Part shown: positions 2,324 to 26,549 of the stretch, piece after piece | How the letters are laid out: every line of letters begins with the position of its first letter | Numbering within the stretch: the first letter of the stretch is position 1 | Origin: Nemertoderma westbladi | Taxonomy: Eukaryota > Animalia > Xenacoelomorpha | Assembly (NCBI GenBank): GCA_032718475.1 | Contig: JAUCBJ010001928.1 | Location: forward strand, 7,266 to 71,265 | DNA length: 64,000 nt | Reading direction: 5' to 3' | Notes under the pieces: model-generated | What the model saw: the letters and a program-made list of their open reading frames with translations, nothing else | Databases searched by the model: none | What the model was told of the DNA's origin: nothing | Translations under genes and position numbers: made by a program

Positions 2324-2354
<31 letters not shown>

Positions 2355-5700: not shown

Positions 5701-5967
5701 TGGGTGTAGTTAGTTGGATTAACATGTGTCCTGCACGTTAGGTCAGGTCAGGTATTCTAGGTCATTGATCAAGAAAACTTGCCACCTCCATGCAGCATAA
5801 AGGAGGTGCCATGGTTCGACAACATTTGTGTCTACTGTTGACGGTGACACAGGACCATTTGAAGTGTTATGGGGCGTCCTCCAGGGAGACACACTTGCAC
5901 CATTCTTGTTCATAATTGTTGTTGACTATGTTCTACGCATGTCCTTAGATCATCATAATGATGATGG

Positions 5968-7227
5968 TGTACGCGCTTTTGAAGACCTTTAGCAGTTTAA
6001 CCTGCCAAAATTTATATGTCTTTTGGTTTATAAATGTACTTTAGAAGATGACAAATATTTAATACCAATAAACACAACATTAGCAGAAGCCAGCCTAGTG
6101 CGCGTCCATTCACCCGCTGGATATTCCCGGGAGACTGGATTCTGAGGGCTTAGATTATTATTGCAGTGAAGCTTACTGTATTGTATTATTCGATTGATCG
6201 TTAATAATTAATTTCTGACTAATATTATTTACTTTCGGGAAATATTAACAGTTCCTTTAGGACGTGGCGCTCTATCTAAGTAAACAGAGATATGACTTAT
6301 ACTAATCACAACGGTAAGTCGGTAAGGCTTAAGATTCACGTATGAGGCGCATTCTTTAGGAAATGCTTAGTTATCAATCACAATCATGCACACTACCGGT
6401 AACACACAATACTGCTCACTAATTTGCCGACCGTCAATGAATTTTATCATATATAAAGAAAACAGCAACGGACCAATGTAGTGCTTATCAAATAGCATTA
6501 AATTCACTACAAACCACAACAATATAAGTCGCAATCGCTATATATAACCCGTCTCTCTAACCTGTAGTGTATCAAGAAAATTGGGAAATTTGGGTTCTTT
6601 ATATATGTTCTCCAAATAATATTCAACCAAAACACAACAGTAAATAGCAGTATAATAATGTATGTTGAACCGATAATGTAAGACTGAAGTGAGATAAGAT
6701 ATGTGAATTGTTAAGATAACAGTTATACGCTCTATAATTTAAGCCTACTAATGTTTCTTCTAAAAGTATGAAACGAATTGACTCTAGAGCCGTTGTTCCT
6801 GGCCTAGACAGCAATAACAACAAAGTATCAAGAAAAAACAGTAAGACTGAACACTCTCCTTATGATCGACCGAAAAGCTACACGTCGACAGGAAAAATCG
6901 CTCTGATTGGCTCAAGCCAAACAAAGAACCATGCGTCCAATGGCTGTTTCCATGTCAGCAACCAGCTGTTAGATGTCGTAATATGAATCATCACGGCTAA
7001 GCTATGAAAGGTATTTGTCGCATTGCAGGTTTTTTGCCTTACCATGTCCGCTAAAACACGTATATAGCAGAATGACTTTTATGTCCGTTAAAACACCTGT
7101 AAAGGTACCTTGCGGGCGAGGGGAATATATATACAGTTAGAGGACCCCTTTTAGAGTATTCCAGCGCCTTGGGGGAAACTGGATTGCGAAGCAAAAGGGC
7201 CAGTTATATCCCACAGAAGCTTTTACA
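5968..7227 (-). repeat. 3' LTR
   Basis: Direct repeat of 23722-24981 (offset 17754); one substitution seen by eye (7170 T vs 24924 G). Confidence 0.97.
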
Positions 7228-7235
7228 CCGCTCCC
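7228..7235 (-). other. Polypurine tract
   Basis: GGGAGCGG immediately precedes the 3' LTR on the minus strand. Confidence 0.65.
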
Positions 7236-7305: not shown

Positions 7306-8307
7306 TTAGTCTTTCTTGCGCGGACGGCGTTTACGCAGTTTTTTAAAGCTAGCAAGAGTCCTTTTCTCTTTGGGGCGAGCCACTTTACAAGGAGGGCTAT
7401 AACTCCTGGGTGAAGGGTGCAATATGATTGCATCAGAGGGTGTAGGATTATGGTCGGTGTATCCGCCAGTCGAAGTACCGGGTTGATTGACATCAACGTC
7501 AGGTGAGAGGGGTCTAACGGCTTTGAGAGCTCGTTTCAAGACAGCCGCTCTTACGGGTCCTTTACGAGTGGTCTGAACGAGGGCCGTGGGTGGACCATAG
7601 GCAGTTAGAAACTTCCGGGGTTTAATGGTCCTTTCCAACTCGCGTTCGTGGGCTCGGTATTCGTAAGGCCTTCGATGTACTTCCTGCAACTCGGGGTGTG
7701 AGTTAACAAACAAGTCTCCATAGTCCGGATCCTGACGGATATAATTGATTAAGTTATAGGAATGAAGGTCGCTAGGATTAACACTCCTGAGAAATTTGCG
7801 TACGAATTTAGTTGAAATACATTCTCCGACGCGCTTCAGTAGCTCGTAACTCGATATGCGTGATTTCTGTTCAACAGAAGCGAATAGATAAGGATGGAAC
7901 GCATAAACTCCTTCGTAAGCGCGTCCGGGATAATAACGATGGCGCGAATCACAATGTAAATCAGCGTTCGCTTCCCAAGCTCTGATGTAACGTAGTGTGA
8001 TCATTTCATCTACGCTTTCCAAATCGTGATTAAAAGGGCAATCGAAACTGGCGTGTCCCTTTAGTTGACAATGGTGACATTGAGTCATAAATTGAGGGCA
8101 AACCGCAAAAACGTGCAAATTATTAAATCTGCAATACGCGCAATAAATTTCCATCGCCGGTTGTTCGTGGAAATAGGAATAGCGGATGTTTGTGTCCATG
8201 GGCGTAACATGGTCTCTCGATGCGCATAACCGACAACGTTGCCGAGAAACATAGTTGGCATGGCGATAATCGTACGCAGTGAGACACTGTGGGCGCCTTG
8301 ATACCAT
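7306..8307 (-). CDS. Cargo ORF C: tandem CCHC zinc-knuckle protein with basic C-terminus
   Basis: CRLCASRDH; CAYCRFNNLHVFAVCP; CHHCQLKGHASFDCP (C-x2-C-x4-H-x4-C); ends PSPRSYSPP...KKLRKRRPRKKD. Confidence 0.7.
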   Translation of the reverse strand: MVSRRPQCLTAYDYRHANYVSRQRCRLCASRDHVTPMDTNIRYSYFHEQPAMEIYCAYCRFNNLHVFAVCPQFMTQCHHCQLKGHASFDCPFNHDLESVDEMITLRYIRAWEANADLHCDSRHRYYPGRAYEGVYAFHPYLFASVEQKSRISSYELLKRVGECISTKFVRKFLRSVNPSDLHSYNLINYIRQDPDYGDLFVNSHPELQEVHRRPYEYRAHERELERTIKPRKFLTAYGPPTALVQTTRKGPVRAAVLKRALKAVRPLSPDVDVNQPGTSTGGYTDHNPTPSDAIILHPSPRSYSPPCKVARPKEKRTLASFKKLRKRRPRKKD

Positions 8308-10013
8308 TCTATGATGTAATCGTTATCACTGTTCCGGGGCGCGATAGGCTGAATCTCTTCAGATTCTAGACATATTGGTTCGTCTTCCAAGTGCATAGCT
8401 GAAGTGGGCGCGTCTGTCTCTTCAGGTGGACCTATTGTCTGAATTTCCACGACAGAATAACCTGTGGGGATTCGAGGTCTTTGTATAACTGAGGAGTGCA
8501 AGTTCGATATACAAATCTCTTGGAAAATGGCGAATCCAGCGCTATCCAACTTCTCTGCAGCTGAGTTTCTTAGGCTGAGTTTGGTCAAAGCGCGGTCTTT
8601 AAATTGGCTATCCACGTTGCGAAACGGGGTTAAAAATCGCCGGAAACATTCGAAACGGATGAATTTATTATGTTCATCTAGCTTAGCGAGTTTGGTCCCA
8701 AGTATTAATGGATGGGTGCGTATAGTACGACTGCACACATCGGCTAGCCAACCGGCAAGTGCGGTGTTTTCAAAGATCGTGTATATAGCTAAGGAGGGAC
8801 GGAGTGGAACACTCATGAAGCTATACACGGCGCCAGGTGCGGTCAATGGTCCATCAAAGTATAATCGAGAATAATGGTCTCCGTATACCTGTTGATAGTT
8901 AATGGGATTTCCGACTTTGAAATTCCATCCGTATTCCTGAAAGGCAAGATGTCCGATGGAAGTTCGTTGCACCTTGGTAATGTTGCTAGACGTATTAGCA
9001 TACATGGTGCGGAAGAAACCTCGACCTTCTGCCCAGGGAGCAATCAGCTGAGTATCAACGAAAGGGTATGGAATGTCCTCCATATTCCGAAAGTCGTTTT
9101 GGAGATCTCCATAAACAGCTGAGCCGATTTTAAGGATTCTTTCGTTGAACAACATCTCGAGTACGGGCTGGGGTAACATCGATCCATCGATGCCCATGGC
9201 CGGTTTGCGTTCGGTGTCAATGACGTAACGCTGCGCGAGTTCGAATTGTCCATGTCGGAGATTCTTTTGTGTTTCGGTGAGAGTTTCAAAAGAATAATCA
9301 ATCAACTCGGAACACGCTCGAGTAAACACGTGGGTAGAACCAGCTAATCCGCGGATGTGGATCATGTGCGTAGTTCCTAGCTCTCCGACCGGAACGCTAC
9401 CTTCATTATCGTAGGTGACAACTCCATACATCTCAATAACATTAAGAGTTTCATTCCACTCCTTGGTGGCATTCTCTAGGGTCATCCCTACTGGATGCCA
9501 CAAGGTGGCGCATTGGTTAGCGTCAGGGAGATCACTATACTTCATATGCCGAGTGGTATACGTCTCCACATTTCCATATCTTTGTATTTTCTCTTCTTCA
9601 AATAATACATCTAGATTCCAATGGACTAATCGAGTTTTAATAAATCCATCGAGGTTATAAGGAGGTTCTATATCTTTCTCGATTCGAGAAATGTTATATG
9701 GTTTTCTAAATGAGTTTACCTTTACTAACTGATCCAGATGTTTCTGCAATTGTTCGAGTTCGACAATGTCTAGAGGATTTATTAGTGGTAGAAACTTTAA
9801 ATCATGTGTCGGGTCTTCTGGTTTTACCATATAATATTGAGTCAGATTAACGTAATAAGGGTGGTCTTTAATCCCGTAAAACGAGTTCTGTAAAGGTCTA
9901 GCGCGTATGTTGACATCGTGTACCATACGACGGACAAGATCCGCTCGATTGTCCGGAGGTTCAACGAGTATACCGCCAACACGAGCGGCCTCGATCGGCG
10001 GACGCTGTAACAT
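8085..10013 (-). CDS. Cargo ORF B: DEDDy-family 3'-5' exonuclease-like protein
   Basis: ExoI-like VVTYDNEG; LPQPVLEMLFNERILKIGSAVYGD (ExoII-like); FVDTQLIA; SIGHLAFQEYG; PLRPSLAIYTIFE (ExoIII-like YxxxE). This is the motif order of WRN/EXD/mut-7/RNase D exonucleases. Confidence 0.7.
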   Translation of the reverse strand: MLQRPPIEAARVGGILVEPPDNRADLVRRMVHDVNIRARPLQNSFYGIKDHPYYVNLTQYYMVKPEDPTHDLKFLPLINPLDIVELEQLQKHLDQLVKVNSFRKPYNISRIEKDIEPPYNLDGFIKTRLVHWNLDVLFEEEKIQRYGNVETYTTRHMKYSDLPDANQCATLWHPVGMTLENATKEWNETLNVIEMYGVVTYDNEGSVPVGELGTTHMIHIRGLAGSTHVFTRACSELIDYSFETLTETQKNLRHGQFELAQRYVIDTERKPAMGIDGSMLPQPVLEMLFNERILKIGSAVYGDLQNDFRNMEDIPYPFVDTQLIAPWAEGRGFFRTMYANTSSNITKVQRTSIGHLAFQEYGWNFKVGNPINYQQVYGDHYSRLYFDGPLTAPGAVYSFMSVPLRPSLAIYTIFENTALAGWLADVCSRTIRTHPLILGTKLAKLDEHNKFIRFECFRRFLTPFRNVDSQFKDRALTKLSLRNSAAEKLDSAGFAIFQEICISNLHSSVIQRPRIPTGYSVVEIQTIGPPEETDAPTSAMHLEDEPICLESEEIQPIAPRNSDNDYIIEWYQGAHSVSLRTIIAMPTMFLGNVVGYAHRETMLRPWTQTSAIPISTNNRRWKFIARIADLIICTFLRFALNL

Positions 10014-11521
10014 AGGGGCGTCAGCGATAAGGTTTTTCGATCCTGTACTGATATCAACTGTGGAATCATAGAGGGATGACGAACGGTTTTAGAGTAGAGG
10101 TCCGTCATGAGGATTTGAGCTTCAGGTTGGGCTAAAGCGGCTTCTTCTCTTTCTTCCAGTTTCGTGTGTTTCTCTTCGATTAGATTTTCTTCCGCTTGTC
10201 TCTGTAAGCGTTCATCTAAAAATTCTTGTAGAGAATACGTGCGTCCAAGCTCGATGTCTTTCTCGAGGTTTTGGATTTCTCTATCGAACTGTGGCAAGGC
10301 TAACTCCTTCACCGATTGGACTTGTTGTTGTAATTTACGTTTCTCTAAACAATCTTGTGTTCCCTTTCCGATTTTCTGTCGAATGGCGTCTAAAGCGTTT
10401 CTTATAACACTCTCCTCGACTTCCGTGGCGGGTTGTATCGGGTTTAATCCTGGACGATTGTAAGGATCAAAGGGCGATATTAGCTGCCCGCATCCCAATC
10501 CGGCTAAGTAGGATGGGCGGATGTCTAACGAACCCACTACCGGAGCACCAACGATTAGTTGTTCGGGTAACACTAAGTCTTTGAACAGGGAATATAGTTC
10601 GGGAGGATCAGTGATACTGCTAGGATCAAGAGTTTGAGGTCTCACTAGGGAATGAGGAGGCCTGACCGAGTATTCCGGAACTCTGATCATGGGTTTATTC
10701 AGTGATCGTTTAAGACGAGCGATCGTGGGTGGTACGTCGAACAGGTTTCGCTCGAAACTCCCGTAAGTATAACGCGTAAAACTATGTTTAGCGCAACGTC
10801 TCCGCGGATGTTTATGTCTTTCAATTTGTTGGTTGGGTCTAGGGCATTCGTCACAATAATACCAAAGACGCACGTCCTGTAGAGGAAAAGCGGGTGATCG
10901 TTCTCCAGTTTTGCAGTATTCTTCCATTTGTTCAAAACTATCCGGGATAACAGGTAGTGGACGATCGGCGGTAAGATACATCATAGTGAAATAGAGCCGT
11001 TTGAGTTCGACTACAGGGTCGTGATGGATACCTTGAGGATATCGAGTCTCTAAGTTCTGCTGACTAGCGACGTTGAGATAGGTTTCTCTCAAAAACTCTA
11101 AGTATTCGTTGAAGTCGATGCATTTATCCGGTTCTTCAACGTTTTCTCTTTCCAGTCTATTACGAATAGAATTTTCGTGATCTATTCTCGGTTTATCGTT
11201 ACGACTCCGCTGGGTATGATATTTAAATAGAACCATTTCCCTTTCTGTATCTACATCGTCTGTATCATGTAAATCGATAGGATGGCCGGTCGTTAGGAAG
11301 TCCATATACGTACCATTACGATTCGTATAGTGAGTGGTGAATTTTCGATAGTCCAATTCACGCGCAAGTTGCTCTTGGGACATCGGCGGTTCGATATAAC
11401 GACCATCGTCCTCCGTAATGGTTGGATCGGCTTCACCGCGTATTAAGCTATCCACAAATGCTTGTAAAGGTAGAGTATATCGCTCCCTAATACCAAGATC
11501 ATCTTCTATCAACTCCGTCAT
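9842..11521 (-). CDS. Cargo ORF A: unknown protein with Cys/His cluster and predicted coiled coil
   Basis: 559-aa ATG-initiated ORF; YCDECPRPNQQIERHKHPRRRCAKH; E/K/Q/L-rich helical segment in the C-terminal third. Confidence 0.65.
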   Translation of the reverse strand: MTELIEDDLGIRERYTLPLQAFVDSLIRGEADPTITEDDGRYIEPPMSQEQLARELDYRKFTTHYTNRNGTYMDFLTTGHPIDLHDTDDVDTEREMVLFKYHTQRSRNDKPRIDHENSIRNRLERENVEEPDKCIDFNEYLEFLRETYLNVASQQNLETRYPQGIHHDPVVELKRLYFTMMYLTADRPLPVIPDSFEQMEEYCKTGERSPAFPLQDVRLWYYCDECPRPNQQIERHKHPRRRCAKHSFTRYTYGSFERNLFDVPPTIARLKRSLNKPMIRVPEYSVRPPHSLVRPQTLDPSSITDPPELYSLFKDLVLPEQLIVGAPVVGSLDIRPSYLAGLGCGQLISPFDPYNRPGLNPIQPATEVEESVIRNALDAIRQKIGKGTQDCLEKRKLQQQVQSVKELALPQFDREIQNLEKDIELGRTYSLQEFLDERLQRQAEENLIEEKHTKLEEREEAALAQPEAQILMTDLYSKTVRHPSMIPQLISVQDRKTLSLTPLCYSVRRSRPLVLAVYSLNLRTIERILSVVWYTMSTYALDLYRTRFTGLKTTLITLI

Positions 11522-12344
11522 ATTTGCTATCTGAGTTTATTAATATCAAATAAGTTTGTATTTAGGCGAGCGGGCGTCGCTGCCTACTTCTCTTTGCCCC
11601 CGGACAGTGGGATTCTCAGCGCCGATGTACCGTCGTCGCGGTGTTTACGCCAACATGTAGCAACAGCACGACAACGATAACCGGCACAAGTCACTCCACT
11701 GTCCGTCCCAAAGGCTTGGATCCACTAAGGTTCTTTCTATAGGAGAGTTGGGCTATTTTTACAATTGCGACTAGCTACTGTAAACATACTTTAGCAGTAA
11801 CATTCACCTATAAACGCACAAATTCCACACAACTGTCAACAACTGCACACACACAGGCCATTTGTCCGTTAGTCAGTGCCTTCCAGAATGTCACTTTATT
11901 ACTGTGTATCCTTGGATACTAACAGTGTGCTATGTATTCTCTATGCTATGCAATGGGACAAGCTTTCTATTGTTCTTTTAACTTGCTTCTAATTCTAGCG
12001 TGGGTGTTGCTATGGTGACATTATGGAAAGCTAGCGGTAGAATTAGGGTAATTCTCATGCATATAGATCTGGGATGCTATTTAATAATAATTCTTTAATT
12101 GTCAATATCCTCTTTATGCATGATTTTATTAATTTTATCGGCTATTGACTATATGTTGGAGATTCTCGCACTCTAATACACTCAATAGGATGAATCTCCG
12201 CTCCCATGATCTATTAATTAATGGAATTTTGGGAATGTTATAAATTGTACAAAATGACAATTTATGAAATTCATTTAAAAATATGAATTTAAATTTATTC
12301 CCGTGAATTTTATTATTTGATGTTAAAATTGACACAATTTGATT

Positions 12345-12602
12345 CCAGAGCAGGTCTGGGGACATAGGATCCTTAATTCCATGAAATTTGTCTTTTAAGA
12401 GTATCGGGAAGTGCTACGATATCTTAATCGACTAGAATTGTTAACGGATCTGAATTTTACAGGTTTTAATAAATATTAAATTAATATTTAAGATGGGCAC
12501 CGATTTATTCCAGAACTTGTCTGGGGACGTTAACCATTGATTCTAGAATTTGTCTTTCAAGTATATCGGTGGGTGCCGCGATATCTTAATCGACTAGAAT
12601 TA
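12345..12602. repeat. Imperfect ~95-bp direct repeat x2 in the pol-cargo spacer
   Basis: GTCTGGGGAC...AATTTGTCTTT...CGATATCTTAATCGACTAGAATT occurs twice, about 165 bp apart. Confidence 0.8.
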
Positions 12603-13148
12603 CAGATGGTCAAAAGGTTTAACAGATTTATTTGCGTTTTACGCTACTGTTAGAGGGACATCACGCTACTATATGTATTATTTAATCTAAGGTAGAAGAG
12701 CAATATCGCACGAAGCAATGTCAGTGTGAAGAGGCAAGTCGTTTCCAAGGTCTACCCAGAGCTTGGTTTAGCCGAGACACGAGGATCTGAACTTTGCATT
12801 CCTAATACTCTGCCTACCAATAATACTTGAATATAGTAGTGGCTTTATTGTACTTTAAGAAGTACGGACATTTCATCTTACTGTAGTCACGTCTTTATAA
12901 TATGATACGGACAGTAAGGATAAAGAAAAAAAAATTATTTCTCGCCGTCGCACTAAATATATATTATAAGTAATTACGTACGTAATAAACACTAATATAT
13001 TGCACTAATCTACTAAATAATACTAAAATAACATTCTATTAAATAAAATTGAATAAAAACGATTATAATAAAGTACATAATAAAGTTCGCATATAAAAAT
13101 ATAATAAAATAGATAAAATAATATAGTCATACACCCACTCCAGACGTA

Positions 13149-16100
13149 TCACGTTAGGGAGTCCCTAGATGTTTGAGGAATTAGGGAGGTAGTCGTAGGA
13201 AGAGTGTCTTGCCTTCCGTAGTTTCCAGAGAGTTCTCTGTCTCTTTCCAGTAAACATAAACGACCAACTGGGCGATTGAGTTGTTGCGTCTCAAAGATGA
13301 TGCCTGGCTTCTTGAAGTTACGCCGCATGACGATGAGTTCTACCGAGCGTACTAAACCATCATCTGAGATGTGTGTCTCGATGATACGACCTGTCTGCCA
13401 CCGTTTACGTGGGGGGTCTGGATCTACAATAAGCACCATATCTCCGGCGCTGACGTTTTCTTGCTGCGCAAACCACTTAGTTCGAAGTTGTAGCGTGGGC
13501 AGATAATGTTTCTCAAAATGGTCAGCGAAACGACGGGATAGCAACTGCATAAGTTGCCAAGTTCGACGGCAGTATTCATCTCCGTCGGCAATCTCCGATC
13601 GTGGGAGCATGGCTACAGGTTTCTTCAGTAGGAAGTGCGCGGGTGTTAGCGCTTCCAGGGAATCGGGACTCGATGAGACTGGCATAAGCGGTCTCTCGTT
13701 GAGATAGGCAGCGATTTCCTCCATTAACGTCCGCAAAAGTTCGTCGGTGAGATACGCGCGGCATGGCACTATAAAGTGAAATGCGGTTTTGACACTTCGA
13801 ATTAATCTCTCCCAACTTCCTCCCCACCAAGGGGCGTCGGCAGCGTTGAAGGTCCAGCTAGACGCTGTTATCCTTAGATGGTCGTCTACCTGTCTTTGGT
13901 TCCAGTCCTTCACGTAAGCCTGTATCTCGTTGTTGGCACCTATGAAGTTCGTTCCTTTATCCGATCTCATGGTATTACTCGTCCCGAAGCGAGCGATCTG
14001 TCGTCGTAAACTTAAGACGAAGCTGTTAGTAGATAGATCGTTCACCATATCGAGATGGATGGCTCTACAAGTCATGCACACGAAGATGACACACCATCTC
14101 TTGACTATAGTCCTTGCACGATATACTTCAATAGGGCCAAATAAATCTACACCAGTATTAGTAAAAGGTGGTTCATAGAAGCTTACTCGTTCCCTAGGTA
14201 ATTCTGCCTCTCGCTGTGTTAAAGGCCTACTGAATGCTTTCCTACAGGGTATGCAGTTCCTAAGAACTTGGTTCAGAGCTCTACGGGGTTTATCAAAATA
14301 ATAGCGAGTTCGAATTTCGCTAAGAATTCGTTCTCTACCAGCATGATAAAGTTTACCGTGAACGTCTACAATCATCTTGATTTGTACTTCAAGATTTCTA
14401 ATAAGTATGGGGAATTTGGTGTCAAAGGATAAGGGCGCGTTGGTGAGTCTTCCTCCAACACGTATTAACCCATCTATCATTGTGCTCGAGAATCGATCCC
14501 TTAAGCGCATCTGTGGATTTCTCAACAACAGGAAGTACTTTTCGGAATCCTCATAGCATTGCAGGAGTCTCAGTATCTGCTTATTTGTTTCTTCATACTC
14601 CTGGTGACTAATTTTCTCCTTTAGAAAACAATCAGATATCTTATATTTGGGTAAATTCTTAATAACATGAACTTGTGCAGATGTCAATGGAGCGTGATCA
14701 CTAGTGGTCTTCGTCCTGGAGTAGTGATGATGAAAACATCGTCTTAAATATGTGACGGCTTTACAGAGCCGATTCCAGGAACTGTAATGATGCATTGCTC
14801 TCTGCAGCATGGGTGAGATTCCTTGCGAGACGTCTGGTATTCCAGATTTCCAATCTCTATCTCTAATTTCCACAACAGACTTATTTGTGTTGAGGGATTG
14901 TGGATCCGAAACATCATTCCCGGAAGTATGTAATACAGATAGATCGATAGTCGGTTTAAATAACTTCGATTTACTCGCCCGGGTTTTAGGTTTGACTGTC
15001 TCCGCTCCCTTGGCTTGTCTAATCTCTGCCGTAGTAAGGTGAGGAGGCCATTCATCCTCTTCCTTGCTCAGGAAGTCGGGTCCATCCAACCAATCTGGAG
15101 TATCTATCAGTTCCTATGGAGTTGCTCCCCTGGAGGCGATATCGGCTGGATTAATCGTACCAGGGCAATGTCTCCATTGATCTATCTTTGTGCGACTAAG
15201 AATAATAGCTACTCGGTTAGTAACAAAAACGCTAAACTGACAGACTTCATTGGTTAGATACTCTAACACGAGTAAAGCGTCGGTCCAATAAACCGTTTTC
15301 TCCAGTGGATAGTCGATTTATTCCGTTACGTTCCGGCCGATGGCTGTAGCGTATAAAGCCGCCTTTAACTCCGCTCGAGGAACCTTTAACTTGTTGTTAA
15401 TCAATGCCTTAGAGGTAACCAAGGCGACCTTGATTCCATCCGGAGTTTCGACTCGCAGATATGCTACTATACCTATTCCCATGTCGCTGGCGTCTCCAAA
15501 CACATGGAGTTGATAGGAATACGTAGGAAGAACATGGCCAAAATATGCACGGGAAATTATAAAGTTCTCGATGGCAGGTAGAGAATCTTCCCATTTCATC
15601 CATTTCTTTAACAATTCCCCTTTAAGCGGATCGTCCCATGAGTGGTTTTCAAGCCACATTTGTTGTACTAAACTCCGAGCAATCAATATAACTGGGCTAA
15701 TAAATCCCAATGGGTCGAAATAAGTGCTCAGGATACTTAAACAAATCCGTTTGGTCCGAACTGGATTATCTCGCTGTTTTAACTGAAAAAACAGGATGTC
15801 TCTTTCAGTGTCCCACTTCAAGCCTAGCGTCTTGGTTTCAGGAAGATCGTCCTTTATTAAGTCTAGGTCTTTCGCTCCGCGATCTTCTACCGGTATGGCT
15901 TCCAGAAACTCACGGGAGTTGCTAGTGAATTTCGTCAGTCGAAATCCACCTCTTTTCAAACACTCTACCATTCCTTTCGCGACAGCTATGGCTTCTTCTA
16001 CTGATGGAAGGGACCTTAAATTGTCGTCCATGTATATATTGCGTTTTATGTTGTCTATCACTTCTTTGGAGAAGGAGTCTCGGTTGTCATTCGCAGTGGT

Positions 16101-19100
16101 TCGCACCACGGAGCAGGCGTTGGAAGATCCCAAAAGATATGATCCCAAAAGCCTGGATGGTCATCCAGTACTCTACCGGTTTCTGGTTGAGGTCTCCTTC
16201 AGGCCACCACAGAAATCTCAGGCTATCTCTATCTCTATCCAGCGCCTTGACTTGTAAGAACATTCCTTCTATATCAGAGGCGAACGCGATGGAATATTGT
16301 CTTAATCTTAATAGTATTCCCAACAAAGATTGGAGTAAGTTGGGTCCTGGTAACAACTCGGAATTGAGGGATTGACCCATATATAGAGCAGAGCCATCAA
16401 ATACGACTCGTACTTCATGGGGTTTACTGGGTTTGGGAACGTAATGATGTGTTAAATAATACGTTCTCTCAGTCACTGGTGTTCCTTCCGGTACTCGCTC
16501 CGCGTATCCCTTTGTTATAAATTTCTTCAGCTGAATTTGGTACATTTCTTTCGCTGAAGCATTAGCTGTAAGGCGTCGATATAATTGAGCGATTCTTTTC
16601 TCTGCCAAGGGTCTGTTATTTATAAATCTAGGTTCTCGTTTTCGAAATGGTAGGCCGATTTCATACCTACCTTGGTCCTTTAAAAAACGTGTAGTTGTTT
16701 CCTGGATTTGCTTGGCTCTTTCTTCTTCTATCGATAGAGCCTTATCATATGAATTGGGCTCTACCAGTTCCTGAGTAAAGAATCGTACAGCTAGTTCGTC
16801 CCGAGTTCTAGCGTTGTAGCGCTCTATCTCATCGTTTAGTTCGTCATTGTAAGCGATGGGTTCCGATGGGTGAATCAGTTGACATAGGTTCACCTGACTT
16901 TTCCAAGTTTGGTTTTCTGTAAGTAGGTCGGTTGTGTTCTCTTCATCGAAGAGTTGGTAGATGTCGTCATTATCTGAGGAGTATGGTGTTCCCTCAGTTA
17001 GTTCGTCCACCTCACTGCTCTCCACTTCCCAATCGTGTACTTGGTATGTTTGTTCTTGTGGCATTCTCTCTTCGAGAGTCCTGCGGGAAGGGCCAGTAAT
17101 GTACCAACCTACTCTAGTTCTTACCGCATAGGTTTGCAGTGGCTGCGGTTGAGCAGGCCGTTTCTCTAATGTTTCGAGCGCCTCATGCGCGTTCTGGCCG
17201 ATGAGTATTTGCACTCCAGGATAATCTGTCTGGAATCGAGGTATCTTAAGATGTTGGATGCTCTCATCCTCGTCCCAATTATAAAGGTCTGCTTGAGTAG
17301 TAGCGAAGTTCTTTATAGCCACCATTTTTACCGACCTTATACCTTGTGCTCCTAACTTATCCTGGGGGGTGGACAACACACCTACATAGTAATCTGCCGT
17401 TAAGGTAGATTTCCAAACCTGCATAATTCCTGACATATTCAATTTAGTCCGGAATTTGGGTTGTCCAGCAAAGATATCTTCGGCTAATTCTTGATCGATG
17501 AATGTTCCTGTGCTGCCGGAGTCAAGGAGGGCGTTCACTATGTAACTTTTGTTAAGACCGTGAACTCTTACCTGCACTACAGGAAATTCTCTGATTCCTA
17601 CGTTGGAAGTTGGAGCTTTCCAAGATGGTTGTTTGGCAAAAGTAGTTGGGGGAAACTCATTGTTGGTGTCCTTTTCATAAGTAAGTGCTCGATACACTGC
17701 GGTATTGATTAGATAACAGGATTCGTTGGCGTCGGAGAATTCGTCAGTATAGAATCCTTCCATCTCAGACTCCTGATCAGTGTCATTTACATCACTGAAT
17801 TGGACATGTAGTTCGGGCTCACTTACCTGACTCTGTTTGTCTCGTTCGAACTCACTGTGTAACATGATGTGATGTTTCGCGCCACACTTTGCACACTTTA
17901 TATCGGAGTAACAGGTTCGCCGTTGGTGTCCTGGTCTGAGGCAATTATAGCATAACCGCTTGTCCCACACAACTGCACGTCTGTCTACAAGGGATTTCTT
18001 TAGAAATTCAGCACACGCACTCAAACGGTGGGTCCCGTCACACAGCGCACAGTTAGGTTTTATGTTACTCACTTTACCTTGGGTAACTTGATGCACTCTC
18101 GTTTTTTCTTCGGGTTTTCTTCGGTGCATTCTGTTAGGAGACTGAGGGGGGGTCTTGGCAACCTGTTCTCTCCTATCGTTGTTTCGAGCCTTATATTTAC
18201 TTACCTCTTTTGGGGTTTTGTCAACGTAGTAAGATCGGTCAGTGTCTTTCCCGCTGTCTTCTTCTTGAGAAACTTGGCTTTCGCCGTCGTCAGTGTAACA
18301 CACCGGTGTTATTCTTCTCCTAGAAGCGGGTTTCTCACTTACCTTATTTTCCGATGTTTTCTCTCTGGACTGCTTGATGAGTTGTAGTTTTACCTCACCA
18401 TCCAAGAAGGACATGAGATCAGCCATGGTAGGACTTCGTCGTTGTTGTTCATTCATGTACAACACTTTCTTGTCCCAGCGTGTACATACTCCACCCTTTG
18501 GTAAAGTAGAGACTACGGCTCCAATAACCATTGAACTCTGATATTCATGAGACTTACCTAACCAGTCCAATTGTCTACAGATCTCTTGAATCTCATCGGA
18601 AAACTCTATAATCCCGCTACTAAGGAAGTGTCGGGGGGCTACTAATTTTGCATACAAATACTTAGCTATGTTATCCTTGTTACCATACCTGATGTTTAAT
18701 GTATCCCATACTTGTCTTAATCCTTCTGGATGTCCAATAAACTTTAACGCCATTAACTTGGGAGGTCCTTCCAAGCACTTGATGAGGAACCTAAGTTTCT
18801 CTCCGTTAGATAGTACAGAGTTCTGTATGCTGTCTTTGTAATATTCGTTGAAAGGTAACCATTTCATCTCATCTCCATTGAATTTGACGATCTCTCCCAC
18901 TTTGACCGCTTGGCGGGCTGCTGTTCCAGCCATCTGCCGCGTAAAGCTTTCTTGGGCCATCGTGTTATTTAATATCGAATTATCGGTATATAAATTTCTC
19001 GGATCAGTATCAGGTCTATAGGGAATATCATTAATAACAGGTCTATAATCACCCTTAATAGGGTTTGCTATAGGAGTTTCTACTTCACTAGCAGTATAGA

Positions 19101-21207
19101 TGCGTGTAGTCTCCACACCTTGCACATGTAATACTTCAGACCTAACAGGTTGACACAATGTTACAGGGGGTATTGGTATTCCCTTTTGGATATTCACTAA
19201 TTTGTCGCGTTCTAGCGCGATACTTTGCTGCACTTCTTGCAATTCGGCCCTACTTTCCCTTACTGTTCCCTTAAGCTGGTGGACAGTCTCCTGCATCTGT
19301 CCGAGCAGGAGATTCATCCCCCGCCGTCCCTCCTCTACCCACTCGACCGCCGAAGCGGGAGTCGCCAACATAGTAGCGGGCTGACGCGGGACGACGGGAG
19401 ACAAATCTTTGATTTCTCTCTCAGCTTCCAGGACAGGGATATTCTCATGGACTGTTCTACCGGGTACAGGCAGTGTAGTACTGTGTAAAGGGAATTTAGA
19501 GTGAAGCTCTGGAAGTACAGGGGTCTCTAACACAGAAGTGACTTTGGGAACGACAGGCCTAATTATTTCAGGCTCATCAACTATTGTAGGGAGTCTTTTG
19601 ACCTGAACAGTTTGGTCTATGGGTTCCGTACTACCTAAGTCTGTGCTAGCTAGCTGTCTTTTAACAGCTGGGGGCAAATCAGGCAATTTGTGACGGTGAG
19701 ATGTTTTTCTACGCCTGCTTAGACGAGATCTATTTCCTCCGCCTTCAGGATCGGTGGTTTCGCTTTCCTCCGATGATGTGTATCCCTGGCGTTTGGGAGT
19801 AGATCGTCTCATCATCTGCATTTGCCTAGCAGTTAACTGTTTATTTATGTTGTCTTGCGTCTCTTGCAGATTTTCCAACTCCAGTTGGGTAGTCTGCTCA
19901 GACGCTCTCCGTTCTGCTTCTGCCACTGCCCTTTCCGCCTTTGCTTCTGCCGCCGCTGCCTTTCTTTCTGCTTCTACTTCTACCGCCACTGCTTTTCTTT
20001 CTGCTTCTGCTTCTGCCGTAGCCGCCGCCTTTTGTTCCTCTATCCGTCTTTTCTTTACCTTTTCTTCTTGGACTCTAGCGAGGCGGAGTTTTTCATCAAA
20101 TTCTGCTTGGTTAGCAGCTAACATTTCAGCATCGATTGAATCTAACACACGCTGGGTTCCTTCACTATTGGGGGAAAGTCCAGACAGCCGTCTCCTCAAT
20201 TCTTCGTCTCCTAGGAATCGCTGATAGTCGGACAGATAAATGTCTATGGCGTCTCTCGTTCGTGGTTTCTCTGAGGTCTCTTCGCCTTCCACTTGAGAAA
20301 GGGTGGCATCGGTTGGTTCTTCATAAGTTAGTCTCTCAGACAGCTGGGATTTCCACTGGTCTGTTTCTTGTACTTGGAGACCTACCCGCTGGAACCAAGT
20401 TTTGACAGCAACCTGCAGTGACGTGTCCTGTCTTCTTTTGGAAGTTTCCTCAAAAGCTGATAGGATTAGTCGAATGCGTAGGGTTCTTTCGCGTACTTGA
20501 TATAGCAGTTCTTCCTGCTCTTGAGGTCCTTGGGGTTGTCGAAACAGTTGTTCTTCTAATTTCTCTAAGGAGCCGAAGAATCCCTGCACATATCCTGCTG
20601 CCGACCTCTTCCAAACAGCTGGATCCATCGTATCTTTAGCCACTCCCATCCTGTGTATATCTTCCCAAGTAGCCTCGGACAGATCTAACGGGAGTCCGGG
20701 TCCGGGAAAGTTCCATTGTGACTCGACAATAGACATCAATTCTTCCCTGGCGTATCCCGCATAATTATCCTGGGTCACTCGCTTATTTCTCGCCCAATCT
20801 GCTTGATGTTCCTCCACCGCAATCAATATAGTTGTTAGCTCTGCGGCAGGAAGGGTGAGAAGGGGGTCCGAGTAGGCTTTAGCCGTCATCTGCAATCCGC
20901 GTTCGGGGGTCAGTTCGACAGTATCCGAACTACTGGAGCTATCTGATCGCTGGGAACAAGTTTCTTGACTAGGCTGTTGCTGCTGTGGGACAGCTGCTTC
21001 CTGGTTCCGTTTGACTTGGGCCCGAGTGCCGATGATAGACCTACGGTGTTGGATTAGCTTAGGGTCTGATACTACTACTGGAGGGATGACCTTTCTTTCA
21101 GTAGGAGGTGAGCTGAACTCCTTTCTTAATCGCTCCACACTCCTATCTGTGTCACAGATGGTTGTATCGATTAGACTGTCTGACATGTTTTGCTGAGTGT
21201 CAGACAT
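13149..21207 (-). pseudogene. BEL/Pao gag-pol polyprotein, disrupted (1 frameshift, 2 in-frame stops)
   Basis: Three Gag knuckles (CALCDGTHRLSAC, CYNCLRPGHQRRTC, CAKCGAKHHIMLH); protease LLDSGS; RT RVVFDGS/PGPNL/DIEGMFLQV/YMDD; RNase H HVFGDAS/PRAELKAA; integrase HGKLYHAG..CIPC, GVDLFGP, SDKGTNF, GGSWERLI. Frameshift near 16130; TAA at 15318-15320 and TAG near 15115. Confidence 0.95.
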
Positions 21208-22529
21208 GTTTAGCTATACAGTTGAATGCTTACTGCTATAGTTACAGTTAAAGCAAGTCTAGTAATTCAGTATGACCGTTGGCCTAGTACCGGTAATTTA
21301 TTACAGTATTAGAATACCGGTATGCGCTTATAATATATATATAAGTATTGTAAACTAGGTTTGTCACAGAGTACCGGTATATAATTTTAGCACAAATATA
21401 TATAAATATATAATAGGCCTATCGTGAATACCGGTATACAGCTTACACTTATAGTATATATAAGTATAATTATGAACTAGAATTAATTACAGAGTACCGG
21501 TATGATTTCAGCTCAAATTTATAGAAATAAATATAATAAGCCTATGGTAAATACCGGTATGTCAATTATTTTATAATAATTGAATTTCTGAATATTTTAG
21601 GGTTACTTGGTTACTTTAACTTACTTTGTTACCGTTATTTAAGCAGTAGTCCAACTGATTTTGAGACCTAGTTGTTGTATGGCAGGCCTACTATTTATAA
21701 ATCGTTTGTGTTGATTTATAATAGATATATACCCGTTTAAAAGGGTTTTTTCAATATTTGAAATAAATGTTATTATTTCTGGGGGGTCACTACACAGAAG
21801 CTGTGCGCTCTCAGTGAAGTGCTATTTATGGGACACTAAAACAGATAATTCTAATTTACCTAAGTTACTTAATACTACAAATTACTTACGATACGGGTGA
21901 GATTAATTCTCTAATTAAACACAACAAAATATTACGTACGAATTTTTTAGGGTAATTTTACAGGAAGTCTACAAACCAGTCTAACAAAGGGTTAGAATTC
22001 TGGTTATTATAACGGACAGGGTATTACGGTATTTGAAAATAATAAGTAGTAGTAAATATATTGCACTGTCCAGATAGGAAAATACCACCGCCTGACGACC
22101 TATAGCCGTAGCGCTATAGGTACTACGTTATGTATCACGGAGTGTTCCTACCTAGAAGTTAATTACCGCGGACTACCAGATCCAGCGTGCCTATTAACCA
22201 CTTTACAACACAAATATACTGCCTACACACTAATTACCTCGGAAAGCACTGTACACTAAACCCTAAATTAGGTACAAGTACTGGTACAACAAATAATCAG
22301 TAGTTAAATATACTTGAACAGTTAAAAGAACCACGGCATCTGCTGGAGTGACCAGAGCACAAAGTCACCAGTCTTGTCCTACGCCAAGCAGCCCGTGTAG
22401 TACCGGGGTTAATTTAACTATAACGGTATGTATAACAAACACAATTACTGTAGGAATAAACTTGGGGACATGAATGTTGCGAATAATCGCATAAACTCTG
22501 AATAATAAATATTACGCTACCCGTACAGA

Positions 22530-23350
22530 ATACTCAAACAAAATACAGACCAAATGCTGGCAGACTACCACCAAGCCTAAATAAACTACTGTATGTGCAG
22601 ATTCCAAAACGGTTAGTTAGTATGCGTTCTAACACGGTAGTACGACTTATTCTTTAAGAGGGGATTGACCTTACAGCTATGGCTGCCCCAACTTACTAAC
22701 TGGCACTTTATCAGACAAACTCTACACAAGCAGCAATCTCTTCAGACCTAATAATAGCTAGACAACAATCCAGCCTACAAAATATCTGAGTAATAACTAT
22801 TACGGTACCTGAACACACACAAACAAACACAAGCCAAAACGCTGGCAGAATACTGTCAAGCCTAAATAAACTACAGTATGTGCAGATTCCAAAATTGTTA
22901 GTTAGTATGCGTTCTAACACGGTAGTACGACTTATTCTTTAAGAGGGGATTGACCTTACAGCTATGGCTGCCCCAACTTACTAACTGGCACTTTATCAGA
23001 CAAACTCTACACAAGCAGCAATCTCTTCAGACCTAATAATAGCTAGACAACAATCCAGCCTACAAAATATCTGAGTAATAACTATTACGGTACCTGAACA
23101 CACACAAACAAACACAAGCCAAAACGCTGGCAGAATACTGTCAAGCCTAAATAAACTACAGTATGTGCAGATTCCAAAATTGTTAGTTAGTATGCGTTCT
23201 AACACGGTAGTACGACTTATTCTTTAAGAGGGGATTGACCTTACAGCTATGGCTGCCCCAACTTACTAACTGGCACTCTATCGGACAAACTCTACACACG
23301 CCGTAATCTCTCCAAACCCAACAACAATCCGACAACAGTCCGGCCTACAA
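22530..23350. repeat. 285-bp tandem repeat, about 3 copies, in the element's 5' leader
   Basis: GTTAGTTAGTATGCGTTCTAACACGG occurs at about 22612, 22897 and 23182; identical small ORFs at 22711 and 22996. Confidence 0.92.
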
Positions 23351-23528
23351 TTATCTGAACAATCTGAGCAGACTTACACGTCTTCAGCTCAATATTAACT
23401 TACTAGGAAATAAAACTGACAGAAATAGACCTAAGTAAAATCCCAATAAAAACCAGGCGTCCCCGATTTAATATCGAGACCTACCGGTATACAATAATCA
23501 AATCGAATAATACTAATGTACTTATACT

Positions 23529-23660
23529 GGAAGTACCGGTTAGGACAGTTGGGCCTACGGACCTACAGAAGTACCGGTTCTGGCAGTTGGACCTACGGAC
23601 CTACAGCAGTACCGGTTCTGGCAGTTGGGCCTACTGACCTACAGAAGTACCGGTTCAGGT
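23529..23660. repeat. About 38-bp tandem repeat, 3-4 copies
   Basis: AGTACCGGTTCTGGCAGTTGGRCCTACGGACCTACAG units. Confidence 0.85.
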
Positions 23661-23721
23661 TTACCGGTTGACCGGTACTTTCAACTTTATTGCTTACTGC
23701 AATAAAGTCAATGACTGTTAT

Positions 23722-24981
23722 TGTACGCGCTTTTGAAGACCTTTAGCAGTTTAACCTGCCAAAATTTATATGTCTTTTGGTTTATAAATGTACTTTAGAA
23801 GATGACAAATATTTAATACCAATAAACACAACATTAGCAGAAGCCAGCCTAGTGCGCGTCCATTCACCCGCTGGATATTCCCGGGAGACTGGATTCTGAG
23901 GGCTTAGATTATTATTGCAGTGAAGCTTACTGTATTGTATTATTCGATTGATCGTTAATAATTAATTTCTGACTAATATTATTTACTTTCGGGAAATATT
24001 AACAGTTCCTTTAGGACGTGGCGCTCTATCTAAGTAAACAGAGATATGACTTATACTAATCACAACGGTAAGTCGGTAAGGCTTAAGATTCACGTATGAG
24101 GCGCATTCTTTAGGAAATGCTTAGTTATCAATCACAATCATGCACACTACCGGTAACACACAATACTGCTCACTAATTTGCCGACCGTCAATGAATTTTA
24201 TCATATATAAAGAAAACAGCAACGGACCAATGTAGTGCTTATCAAATAGCATTAAATTCACTACAAACCACAACAATATAAGTCGCAATCGCTATATATA
24301 ACCCGTCTCTCTAACCTGTAGTGTATCAAGAAAATTGGGAAATTTGGGTTCTTTATATATGTTCTCCAAATAATATTCAACCAAAACACAACAGTAAATA
24401 GCAGTATAATAATGTATGTTGAACCGATAATGTAAGACTGAAGTGAGATAAGATATGTGAATTGTTAAGATAACAGTTATACGCTCTATAATTTAAGCCT
24501 ACTAATGTTTCTTCTAAAAGTATGAAACGAATTGACTCTAGAGCCGTTGTTCCTGGCCTAGACAGCAATAACAACAAAGTATCAAGAAAAAACAGTAAGA
24601 CTGAACACTCTCCTTATGATCGACCGAAAAGCTACACGTCGACAGGAAAAATCGCTCTGATTGGCTCAAGCCAAACAAAGAACCATGCGTCCAATGGCTG
24701 TTTCCATGTCAGCAACCAGCTGTTAGATGTCGTAATATGAATCATCACGGCTAAGCTATGAAAGGTATTTGTCGCATTGCAGGTTTTTTGCCTTACCATG
24801 TCCGCTAAAACACGTATATAGCAGAATGACTTTTATGTCCGTTAAAACACCTGTAAAGGTACCTTGCGGGCGAGGGGAATATATATACAGTTAGAGGACC
24901 CCTTTTAGAGTATTCCAGCGCCTGGGGGGAAACTGGATTGCGAAGCAAAAGGGCCAGTTATATCCCACAGAAGCTTTTACA
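23722..24981 (-). repeat. 5' LTR
   Basis: Direct repeat of 5968-7227; lies upstream of gag on the minus strand. Confidence 0.97.
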
Positions 24982-26549
24982 GATGGGGTGATGATAACTC
25001 CACCTACTGGCTCCAGAAGTCGAGGAAATCCTGCCAAGTACCTAACTGATCTAGACTTTGCTGATGACTTAGGAGTACTCTCAGAATCACTAGAGGGAGC
25101 CCAACGGCTCCTCAGCTCATTAGAACATGCTGCTTCTAGTGTTGGTCTTTTTATTAACTCCAGAAAGACCAAAATTTTGACAGTTAACTTTGAAAGTCCT
25201 CAGCAAGTCTCTGATCGGATGAGCATAAGCTCAAAAGATGGTATGCTTGAGCACGTGGATGACTTCTGTTACCTGGGATCATGGATCCGGAAGTCAGGTG
25301 AGGACCTTCGAATACGTAAGGGAAAGGCATGGGCAGCCTTGAATAGGCTTTCCAGGATTTGGAAGTCACCGAGAATTAATCGGAAACTTAAGGTCCAGTT
25401 ATTTAGAGCAGCAGTAGTTCCAGTACTCCTCTATGGGAGTCCATGCTGGGCTCTAACTGCTGTGGACACCAAATCTCTGGATGGCACATTCACAAGAATG
25501 CTACGCCGGGTTCATTGTGTCAAGTTCAATGCACACATCTCCAACCAGACACTATATAACATTGGAGGTGTCTCATTGGTTCCCCCAAGCTTGACACTAG
25601 AACAAAATCGCCTCCGCTTTTCAGGACATTGCTTTCGCCGTGAGGACCAGCCAGTGCATAATCTTGTACTTTGGCAGCCTCATGGAGTGAATAAGCATGG
25701 TGGACAGCCCATGACTTTCTTGAGACGCATCTTAAAGGACATTGGCCTTGAAGATGCGGATGATCTAGCAAATGTCATGGGTGATAGGGAGTTGTGGCGG
25801 TGCAATTTTGTCGATAAGCCGGCACAGCATTCTTAAAAATGCAGCTGCAATGCAGCATGCCGATCCTAGTAGTAGTAGTAGTAGTCCTGCACGTGTCCAC
25901 GTGTTAGTGTAGCAGTAGCTGATGCGCCAAATCCCAGCGAAACACATGAAAATGTAACCAATGTGATAATTTTACTTACAGTATTTAAATAGGGTTGCAC
26001 TTCATGTCCCTGCTTAAATAAAATTATGACTACTTACGGTTGAACAGATATGAACATGTTGTTTCTCTGTTTCCAATTAATTTTACTTGCTTGATATTGG
26101 TCTGCCAAAAATATATTTCGTTCAACCCAAGATTATATAGTTAATATTCTGTATGACATTGGTAGATAGTGGATTTATCTAAGTTGATCTGTGGTATGTC
26201 AATATGAATATGTTATTAGTGCAGTTGTTAAATAACAAATGTTAGCAACTAAGAAAACACTTATTTGTTTGTAAAGTAACATGCTATTCCTGGACTGGAA
26301 AGTATGTGCATTAAACAACCACAAACATAAAGAGCATTCATTATATTACAGTACAACAAGCAAAGGTCAAATAGTTAGGCATTCCCCTAGATTTACAGGA
26401 AATCTCAACATTATCTAAAGTTTAACAATTAATAAGTTTTTCTTTTATGTTTATTTAGTTTAAAGGAAACACAAGCTTTATAGCATTAAATCCATAGAAA
26501 ATAATAAGCAATTCTTGTCAAGTAGTAGAGTTTACATTTATGTTCCAAC

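What the first reader, a model, noticed from the sequence alone, without database searches (positions are those of the whole stretch)
7306..11521. BEL/Pao retrotransposon carrying an exonuclease + zinc-knuckle cargo in place of env
Seen: inside the LTR boundaries and co-oriented with pol lies 4.2 kb of coding sequence with no obvious signal peptide or transmembrane helix, so it is not env-like. ORF B shows DEDDy exonuclease motifs in the right order, ORF C has tandem CCHC knuckles and a basic NLS-like tail, and ORF A has a Cys/His cluster and a coiled coil. Known: DEDDy proteins of the mut-7/EXD1/Nibbler type act in small-RNA/piRNA pathways, and DEDDy cargo has been reported in bdelloid rotifer retroelements; I know of no such case in BEL/Pao. 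Inference: this may be an element-encoded RNA-binding nuclease module that trims or antagonises silencing RNAs, or processes primers/cDNA ends.
Basis: partly seen in the sequence, partly recalled or inferred. Interest (0 to 1): 0.92.

Follow-up and report, generated by a model that had tools for sequence, protein, structure and literature searches.

The report
BEL/Pao retrotransposon with RNase-D-like cargo
A recently inserted but broken 19-kb jumping gene of the BEL/Pao type carries, where an envelope gene could sit, coding sequence related to RNase D plus zinc knuckles, likely once a single RNA-trimming enzyme that would clip the ends of the host's silencing RNAs.

Summary
Observation largely confirmed. 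The three overlapping ORFs (11521-7306, minus strand) lie inside a 19,014-bp BEL/Pao element whose 1,260-bp LTRs differ at one base. It has a 5-bp target duplication and splits an RTE-type LINE. No transmembrane window was found. ORF B holds an RNase D-type DEDDy domain: several profile tests agree and controls are clean. Three catalytic residues (D, E, D) align; the fourth is Glu. The fold could not be tested, because both AlphaFold models were unusable. Its only detected relative (P0001, unnamed contig, 29% identity) has exonuclease, acidic linker, CCHC knuckles and basic tail in one chain. So B and C are likely one gene split by a frame change, built like trypanosome TbRND. This copy's pol is dead (one frameshift, two stops). 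No sister copy, reads or genomic context were obtained, so family-wide linkage, selection and function are untested. DEDDy cargo is published for rotifer LTR elements. Nine answered literature searches found no BEL/Pao case and no knuckle-fused retroelement case. Verdict: new variant of a known kind. An anti-silencing RNA-trimming role is my best guess (about 0.4).

The parts
23722..24981 (-). 5' LTR, 1260 bp, begins TG, ends CA
   Evidence: BLASTN 99.92% to the 3' LTR, 1 mismatch, no gaps
5968..7227 (-). 3' LTR, 1260 bp
24982..24986 (-). Target-site duplication CCATC (5' side)
5963..5967 (-). Target-site duplication CCATC (3' side)
   Evidence: the two flanks read as consecutive parts of an RTE-type reverse transcriptase
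21208..23721 (-). 2.5-kb 5' leader with 285-bp and 38-bp tandem repeats; no TGG-type primer-binding site next to the LTR (first TGG 266 bases in)
16087..21207 (-). gag-protease-start of RT: DUF1759, three Cys/His knuckles (18051, 17952, 17895), LLDSGS protease motif (17529); frame breaks within RT near 16160-16130
15318..16160 (-). Rest of RT (YMDD at 16034) and Pao RNase H/Peptidase_A17; ends at a premature stop
   Evidence: Pfam PF05380 E 2.6e-33
13149..15113 (-). Integrase (H2C2 zinc finger, core, DUF5641), preceded by a second premature stop
11522..13148 (-). 1.6-kb AT-rich non-coding spacer with a 162-bp two-copy repeat and three acceptor-like pyrimidine-AG sites; no LTR or TIR pair around the cargo
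9842..11521 (-). Cargo ORF A, no family found; CxxC-x16-CxxH at 10855; charged stretch near 10330-10150; coding signal passes to frame B at about 10078-10024
8085..10088 (-). Cargo ORF B: about 180 unexplained residues, RNase D-type DEDDy domain (about 9545-8710), helical stretch, acidic linker (about 8470-8320)
9402..9410 (-). Exo I motif D-N-E (D227, E229)
   Evidence: falls in the invariant D and E columns of 71 natural DEDDy domains
9105..9107 (-). Exo II Asp (D328)
   Evidence: inside the statistically significant block
8769..8783 (-). Exo III variant Y-T-I-F-E (Y436, E440): Glu where DEDDy enzymes have Asp
   Evidence: aligned to YIYCE of P0001, which aligns to the invariant Y and D columns
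7306..8322 (-). Cargo ORF C: incomplete knuckle at 8235, complete CCHC knuckles at 8142 and 8079, unexplained middle, basic tail (7400-7309)
7228..7235 (-). Short purine-rich tract GGGAGCGG before the 3' LTR (PPT-like)
   Evidence: sequence

Best explanation
A 19-kb BEL/Pao element carries after pol an RNase D-related exonuclease domain and CCHC zinc knuckles, likely once one element-owned protein whose knuckles would grip single-stranded RNA and feed its 3' end to the nuclease, most likely to trim or destroy the host's small silencing RNAs. SHOWN: the element's bounds, its insertion as one block, the RNase D relationship, three aligned catalytic residues, the knuckles, and the same order of parts in one chain in P0001. 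INFERRED: that B and C (and perhaps A) were one reading frame, split in this copy by the same decay that killed pol (identity of the module about 0.8); that the site is active despite Glu at the fourth position; that it works like TbRND. GUESSED: the substrate. The basic tail, shared with P0001, would take the protein to the nucleus or add RNA affinity. This copy is inactive and was either copied by an intact relative or decayed soon after insertion.
For: RNase D link: TIGR01388 rnd best of 18,950 NCBIfam models, E 0.0037. A B+P0001 profile over 301 whole bacterial genomes matched 15; all 8 of those 15 that were also in the PF01612 search fall inside PF01612 hits. A profile of 29 RNase D-type domains chosen without my query ranks ORF B first of 1087 sequences, E 6.7e-5. 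hhalign 91-93%, E 3e-7 to 9e-7, against 0.1% reversed and at most 0.8% in 29 shuffles. ESM Atlas names PF01612 clusters for B (0.90) and a PF01612 + zf-CCHC euglenozoan cluster for P0001 (0.86, a lead only). One chain: P0001 has exonuclease (29% to B; 0 of 500 shuffles reach the score), acidic linker, three knuckles and basic tail. D, E, D, Y and the unusual E are all kept across that distance. In TbRND the CCHC domain is needed for RNA binding and efficient trimming of guide-RNA tails (PMC7797062, passages). Element-owned: no second LTR or TIR pair round the cargo; cargo codon use correlates with pol 0.56 and gag 0.53, against 0.35 for the host transporter gene, 0.42 for LINE ORF1 and 0.17 for LINE ORF2.
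Against: No evidence at all on substrate. One copy only; no relative with DNA context was found (7 scans of viral contigs with element or P0001 queries and 1 answered scan of metagenome contigs were blank), so P0001 is not shown to be in a retrotransposon. The significant match covers mainly the Exo II block (48 columns); Pfam PF01612 does not hit ORF B and no PDB sequence does. ESM recognition for B (2223) is under the 2300 mark. The fourth residue is Glu, and a direct MAFFT alignment did not put B's Exo III in the catalytic column; in TbRND the D230A change nearly abolishes cleavage. The C-to-P0001 likeness is confined to the knuckles (post-knuckle part not significant, 478 of 500 shuffles as good), which any CCHC protein could give. 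ORF A has no likeness to P0001 (152 of 200 shuffles as good). B and C have their own ATGs (10013, 9926, 8307). CpG o/e of the cargo (1.2-1.3) is above gag-pol (0.8-1.0).
Confidence: 0.4

Rival explanations
1. Replication helper: the same active nuclease trims the element's own primer or RNA/cDNA 3' ends inside the particle, for example shortening a host RNA to fit an unusual primer-binding site.
For: No TGG-type primer-binding site follows the 5' LTR, whereas Belpaoviridae are described with an 18-nt tRNA-Arg/Gly site (PMC8742986, whole text). 3'-end processing is the role first proposed for rotifer DEDDy ORFs (PMC5408684) and for Dada DNA transposons (PMC3706591; passages). The P0001 knuckles resemble retroviral nucleocapsid.
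Against: No primer was identified: no tRNA gene in the window, no self-priming match longer than 10 nt. Rotifer families without the ORF transpose too (PMC5408684). A basic, NLS-like tail fits packaging less well (inference).
Confidence: 0.22
2. Catalytically weak or dead RNA adaptor: the fold is kept to bind the element's RNA (export, transport, packaging), as EXD1 and Maelstrom keep a dead DEDD fold.
For: The fourth metal ligand is Glu in both B and P0001. EXD1 and Maelstrom are described as inactive RNA-binding DEDD derivatives (PMC5408684, passage). EXD1-like cluster second for P0001 at 0.77 (lead only).
Against: The other three acids and the Tyr are kept at 29% identity, and the change keeps a carboxylate; rotifer ORFs with DEED are held to be possibly active (PMC5408684).
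Confidence: 0.2
3. Three separate overlapping accessory genes, or a programmed frameshift, instead of one decayed gene.
For: No stop in 4.2 kb while pol has two; overlaps of 247 and 238 bases; ATG at 8307 in good context; acceptor-like sites in the spacer.
Against: No XXXYYYZ slippery heptamer in register at either junction. P0001 has the exonuclease and knuckles in one chain. pol has a frame break of the same kind. The overlap tails of A and B score as non-coding or match nothing.
Confidence: 0.1
4. Passenger: a captured host or other-element gene, or a nested insertion, with no role for this element.
For: Single copy seen; higher CpG o/e than gag-pol; 1.6-kb spacer; ESM look-alikes for B are giant-virus proteins; copy number did not clearly track the ORF in rotifers (PMC5408684).
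Against: Intron-free, long open frames in the ORF3 position right up to the PPT; no separate termini; LTR identity leaves little time for a nested insertion; no close host-gene relative among 1.84 billion proteins.
Confidence: 0.08

Closest known systems
DEDDy ORF3 of bdelloid rotifer LTR retrotransposons Juno and Vesta, shared with Athena/Terminon elements (PMC5408684, passages and supplement; PMC6431247, passages)
   Same: RNase D-like DEDDy exonuclease in the ORF3/env position, no transmembrane segment, one catalytic D changed to E, function unknown
   Different: Here the carrier is BEL/Pao; the changed residue is the fourth (DEDE; rotifer DEED); tandem CCHC knuckles follow; the cargo is 4.2 kb with a large unexplained N-terminal part.
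Trypanosome TbRND, RNase D with CCHC zinc-finger domain (PMC7797062, passages)
   Same: RNase D-type exonuclease followed by tandem CCHC fingers; ESM Atlas gives a euglenozoan PF01612 + zf-CCHC cluster as nearest to P0001
   Different: TbRND is a cellular mitochondrial enzyme with four fingers, a 28-residue linker and intact DEDD. Here the linker is about 150-250 residues and the fourth acid is Glu. No direct sequence match to its PDB chains appeared. It is a working model, not a shown ortholog.
Belpaoviridae / BEL-Pao LTR retrotransposons (PMC8742986, whole text; PMC3118150, passages and supplement 9)
   Same: LTRs, three-knuckle Gag, PR-RT-RH-IN order, Pao RNase H and DUF5641, PPT
   Different: 19.0 kb against 4.2-10 kb in the ICTV profile (median 7.4, maximum 22.8 kb in de la Chaux and Wagner); third region is a nuclease module, not env-like; no TGG primer site
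Dada DNA transposons with a DEDDy domain (PMC3706591, passages)
   Same: Transposon-encoded DEDDy exonuclease
   Different: DNA transposon; domain sits inside the transposase, all four residues kept

Membership tests
BEL/Pao (Belpaoviridae) | Two LTRs, TG...CA, with target-site duplication | tested here: met
   1260-bp LTRs, 5-bp CCATC duplication; at the top of the 0.2-1.2 kb range in PMC8742986
BEL/Pao (Belpaoviridae) | Gag and Pol with PR-RT-RH-IN order and BEL/Pao-specific domains | tested here: met
   DUF1759 E 6e-12, Peptidase_A17 E 3e-33, DUF5641 E 1e-19, three Gag knuckles, YMDD
BEL/Pao (Belpaoviridae) | 18-nt tRNA-Arg/Gly primer-binding site | tested here: inconclusive
   No TGG next to the LTR; host tRNAs not available to test internal pairing
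BEL/Pao (Belpaoviridae) | Placement in the RT tree / named clade | not tested
   No reference RT set was fetched
BEL/Pao (Belpaoviridae) | Autonomous, intact pol | tested here: not met
   One frameshift and two stops: a defective copy of the family; this does not bear on family membership
DEDDy / RNase D exonucleases (PF01612) | Sequence or profile homology | tested here: met
   below the curated cut-offs of TIGR01388 and PF01612
DEDDy / RNase D exonucleases (PF01612) | Exo I DxE and Exo II D | tested here: met
   D227, E229, D328 in invariant columns
DEDDy / RNase D exonucleases (PF01612) | Exo III YxxxD | tested here: not met
   YxxxE in B and P0001; placement of B's motif goes through P0001. 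Filed as a variant of the family, not as a canonical member
DEDDy / RNase D exonucleases (PF01612) | RNase H-like fold | tested here: inconclusive
   Models at pLDDT 29 and 31; fold searches uninformative
DEDDy / RNase D exonucleases (PF01612) | Metal-dependent 3'-5' exonuclease activity | not testable with these tools
   needs an assay
TbRND-type RNase D with CCHC domain | Exonuclease and tandem CCHC fingers in one chain | tested here: inconclusive
   Met in P0001; in the window the two parts lie in different frames
TbRND-type RNase D with CCHC domain | Orthology to trypanosomatid RND | tested here: inconclusive
   No PDB sequence hit; only an ESM feature lead at 0.86
Rotifer DEDDy ORF3 pool (Juno, Vesta, Athena) | Groups with these ORFs in a tree | not testable with these tools
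   Sequences not in the paper's text supplement (primers only)
env-like ORF3 | Signal peptide and transmembrane anchor | tested here: not met
   No hydropathy window above 1.6 in A, B, C; control 52

The most novel reading that the evidence does not exclude
A lineage of BEL/Pao elements encodes its own TbRND-like tail-trimming ribonuclease, a DEDE variant with CCHC knuckles, that strips or destroys the 3' ends of piRNAs/siRNAs or removes restrictive U-tails from the element's RNA: an enzymatic counter-defence gene of an animal retrotransposon, sitting in the env slot.
Probability: 0.25. Interest if true: 0.85.

Novelty: new variant of a known kind. Interest (0 to 1): 0.56.

Why it matters
Animal retrotransposons are held down by small RNAs, and element-encoded counter-measures are hardly known (own knowledge; one search listed 7 papers, none by title or abstract on such an enzyme). 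RNase D-like cargo was reported in rotifer LTR elements, with no activity shown. A case in BEL/Pao, a separate family, says that this enzyme class was captured again, which argues that it helps the element. The knuckle fusion gives a testable model, since TbRND's mechanism is solved and P0001 offers a natural intact protein to assay. Weighing against: this copy is dead, it is one copy, and the role is a guess.

Tried and rejected
No whole genome is held and the sequencing-run search gave no answer, so copies, expression and whether the breaks are real or assembly errors were not checked. Word-based protein search: nothing for B, only itself for P0001, only P0001 for the two-sequence profile among longer proteins; proteins under 356 aa were never searched. 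Exact look-up: none of 6 window proteins is in the collection. Locus scans blank: viral contigs with B, P0001, integrase, C, RT/RH, the profile and A and with E. coli RNase D; metagenome contigs with the profile; the RT/RH scan there did not complete. Phage tblastn: only E 4-10. PDB sequence search: nothing for B, A or the profile; AIR2 at E 3.2 for C. AlphaFold with 1 and 2 sequences failed; Foldseek and VIA on the second model were meaningless. PHROGs, Rfam, ARAGORN: nothing usable. Profiles of short stand-alone PF01612 proteins (0.5%) and PolA domains (9.5%) matched poorly. The first RNase D set held loci chosen by my own profile; it was redone without them (29 of 41 rows kept). Rejected: env-like cargo; canonical slippery sites; self-priming; a separately bounded nested element; the coiled coil as more than composition. 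Literature: 9 answered searches showed no BEL/Pao exonuclease cargo; one search looked for the TbRND model. The older C. elegans Cer papers, which I recall describing extra ORFs in BEL elements, were not readable, and Repbase/GyDB entries were not searchable, so an earlier description cannot be excluded.


Full report
THE ELEMENT. The finding lies in a minus-strand LTR retrotransposon of 19,014 bp (24981-5968). Its LTRs are 1,260 bp, TG...CA, and differ at one base. A 5-bp duplication CCATC flanks it, and the two flanks translate as consecutive parts of an RTE-type reverse transcriptase, so the ends are secure. Pfam gives DUF1759, Peptidase_A17, an integrase zinc finger and DUF5641; three Gag knuckles, LLDSGS and YMDD are present. 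This is BEL/Pao anatomy (PMC8742986, whole text). It is long for the family: 4.2-10 kb in the ICTV profile; median 7.4 and maximum 22.8 kb in PMC3118150 (supplement 9). No TGG-type primer site follows the 5' LTR. The host is an unidentified eukaryote, an animal by the element types; no genome is held.

THIS COPY IS DEAD. pol has a frame break in RT near 16160-16130 and premature stops at 15320 and 15116. At the point estimate of LTR age only 0.19 nonsense changes are expected (P of 2 or more = 0.015); at the upper 95% bound 1.04 (P = 0.28). So the copy was probably made from an already defective parent, but decay after insertion or assembly error is not excluded. No reads could be laid.

THE CARGO. 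After 1.6 kb of AT-rich spacer come ORF A (ATG 11521), B and C, each overlapping the next by about 240 bases in the -1 frame, ending 78 bp before the 3' LTR. Chance is excluded (0 of 1000 simulations reach 338 aa). No transmembrane window occurs. No second LTR or TIR pair bounds the cargo. Its codon use is nearer to pol (0.56) and gag (0.53) than to the other genes in the window (0.17-0.42), but its CpG ratio is higher than that of gag-pol. A codon model trained partly on these ORFs puts the A-to-B switch at about 10078-10024 and cannot place the B-to-C switch (8276-8096); the knuckle motifs require frame C from 8235 on. No slippery heptamer is in register at either junction.

ORF B IS RNASE D-RELATED. 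Pfam and PDB sequence searches of B are blank. A search of 1.84 billion representatives found one relative, P0001 (E 3e-6), an unnamed singleton, 29% identical over the domain (0 of 500 shuffles). The trimmed domain's best NCBIfam hits are two RNase D models (E 0.0037, 0.028; far below cut-off). The two-sequence profile matched 15 of 301 bacterial genomes at E up to 0.01, always in frames of 385-460 aa; the 8 that were also in the PF01612 search all fall inside PF01612 hits. A profile of 29 RNase D-type domains chosen without my query ranks B first among 1087 sequences (E 6.7e-5; P0001 second, 0.053). hhalign gives 91.5% (48 columns, Exo II block) and, with P0001 as master, 93.2% over 156 columns; reversed and 29 shuffled controls stay under 1%. 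PolA and short stand-alone sets match poorly (9.5%, 0.5%). The ESM Atlas points to PF01612 for both proteins, with weak recognition for B. D227, E229 and D328 fall in the invariant columns of 71 reference domains. The fourth residue is the weak point: P0001's YIYCE aligns with the invariant YxxxD, B's YTIFE aligns with P0001's, but MAFFT did not place B's motif there directly. Both have Glu. The fold is untested (pLDDT 29 and 31).

B AND C ARE LIKELY ONE GENE. P0001 runs exonuclease, acidic linker, three CCHC knuckles, basic tail. The window has the same order across B and C: acidic stretch at the end of B's coding part (net -11), one incomplete and two complete knuckles, basic tail. The knuckle region scores above all 500 shuffles, but any CCHC protein might, and the part after the knuckles, the linker and ORF A show no likeness. 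ORF A (CxxC-x16-CxxH) has no match in Pfam, NCBIfam, PHROGs, PDB or viral contigs; it was not run through the large protein searches, and whether it belongs to the same chain is open. Its coiled coil is no better than composition.

MECHANISM. The nearest working model is trypanosome TbRND: an RNase D domain with C-terminal CCHC fingers, a pairing its authors call very unusual; the fingers bind the RNA tail and are needed for efficient trimming, and D230A leaves only trace activity (PMC7797062, passages). I infer the same logic here: knuckles hold single-stranded RNA and the DEDE site removes nucleotides from the 3' end. Conservation of D, E, D, Y and E at 29% identity argues for a kept metal site. 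The substrate is a guess. I put trimming or destruction of silencing small RNAs first (0.4), primer or end processing next (0.22, helped by the odd primer site), a dead RNA adaptor at 0.2, separate genes or programmed frameshift at 0.1, passenger at 0.08.

WHAT IS KNOWN. DEDDy ORF3s were described in rotifer Juno and Vesta LTR elements and Athena/Terminons, with DEDD changed to DEED, no activity shown, and both end-processing and silencing roles discussed (PMC5408684, passages and primer supplement; PMC6431247 and PMC5718144, passages). Dada DNA transposons carry a DEDDy domain (PMC3706591, passages). For BEL/Pao the papers I saw mention only env-like third genes (PMC8742986 whole; PMC3118150, PMC13524379, PMC2774666, PMC11662393, passages). 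Searches turned up no BEL/Pao exonuclease; the library lacks most subscription papers, including the older Cer papers, and I did not search the 7,861 element sequences of PMC3118150's supplement. Earlier scan notes (unchecked) report RRP6-like cargo in Gypsy elements elsewhere, which lowers the surprise but suggests repeated capture.

VERDICT. A real feature and a new variant of a known kind: RNase D-type cargo in a further retrotransposon family, with a TbRND-like knuckle module and a DEDE site. It rests on one defective copy and one relative without context; function is untested. Interest 0.56; 0.85 if the counter-silencing reading holds (probability about 0.25).

Noticed in passing
window 23721-23450: No TGG-type primer-binding site after the 5' LTR; the leader starts ATAACAGTC, with a 10-bp hairpin (23708/23693) and 38-bp repeats. 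The primer is unknown.
   Followed up: partly
window 21207-18900: Gag has about 775 residues before DUF1759, with an Ala/Glu-rich helical repeat (4 of 100 shuffles score as well) and no Pfam match above cut-off.
   Followed up: no
window 22497-23386: Three tandem 285-bp copies in the element's 5' leader (78-95% alike).
   Followed up: no
window about 5800-5967 and 24982-25836; 50050-50492: RTE-type LINE reverse transcriptase split by the element; a second, 94% identical piece lies inverted at 50050-50492.
   Followed up: partly
window 54456-55724 and 56679-60035: Apparently intact LINE (CR1/L2-like by my reading): ORF1 of 422 aa and ORF2 with PHD-like finger, endonuclease and RT.
   Followed up: no
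window 26529-27968: Intron-free amino-acid transporter gene (PF01490, E 1e-62), VIAAT-like by recall, 1.5 kb from the 5' LTR.
   Followed up: no
window 1201-3003: Frameshifted LINE-type RT fragments.
   Followed up: no
window 38841-39904 and 30113-31107: AT-rich 165-bp repeats in direct and inverted order; two 13-bp tandem arrays facing each other about 700 bp apart.
   Followed up: no
P0001: Unnamed 648-aa singleton with intact exonuclease (DxE, D, YxxxE), three complete CCHC knuckles and a basic tail; its contig is 9,449 bp and was not readable.
   Followed up: partly
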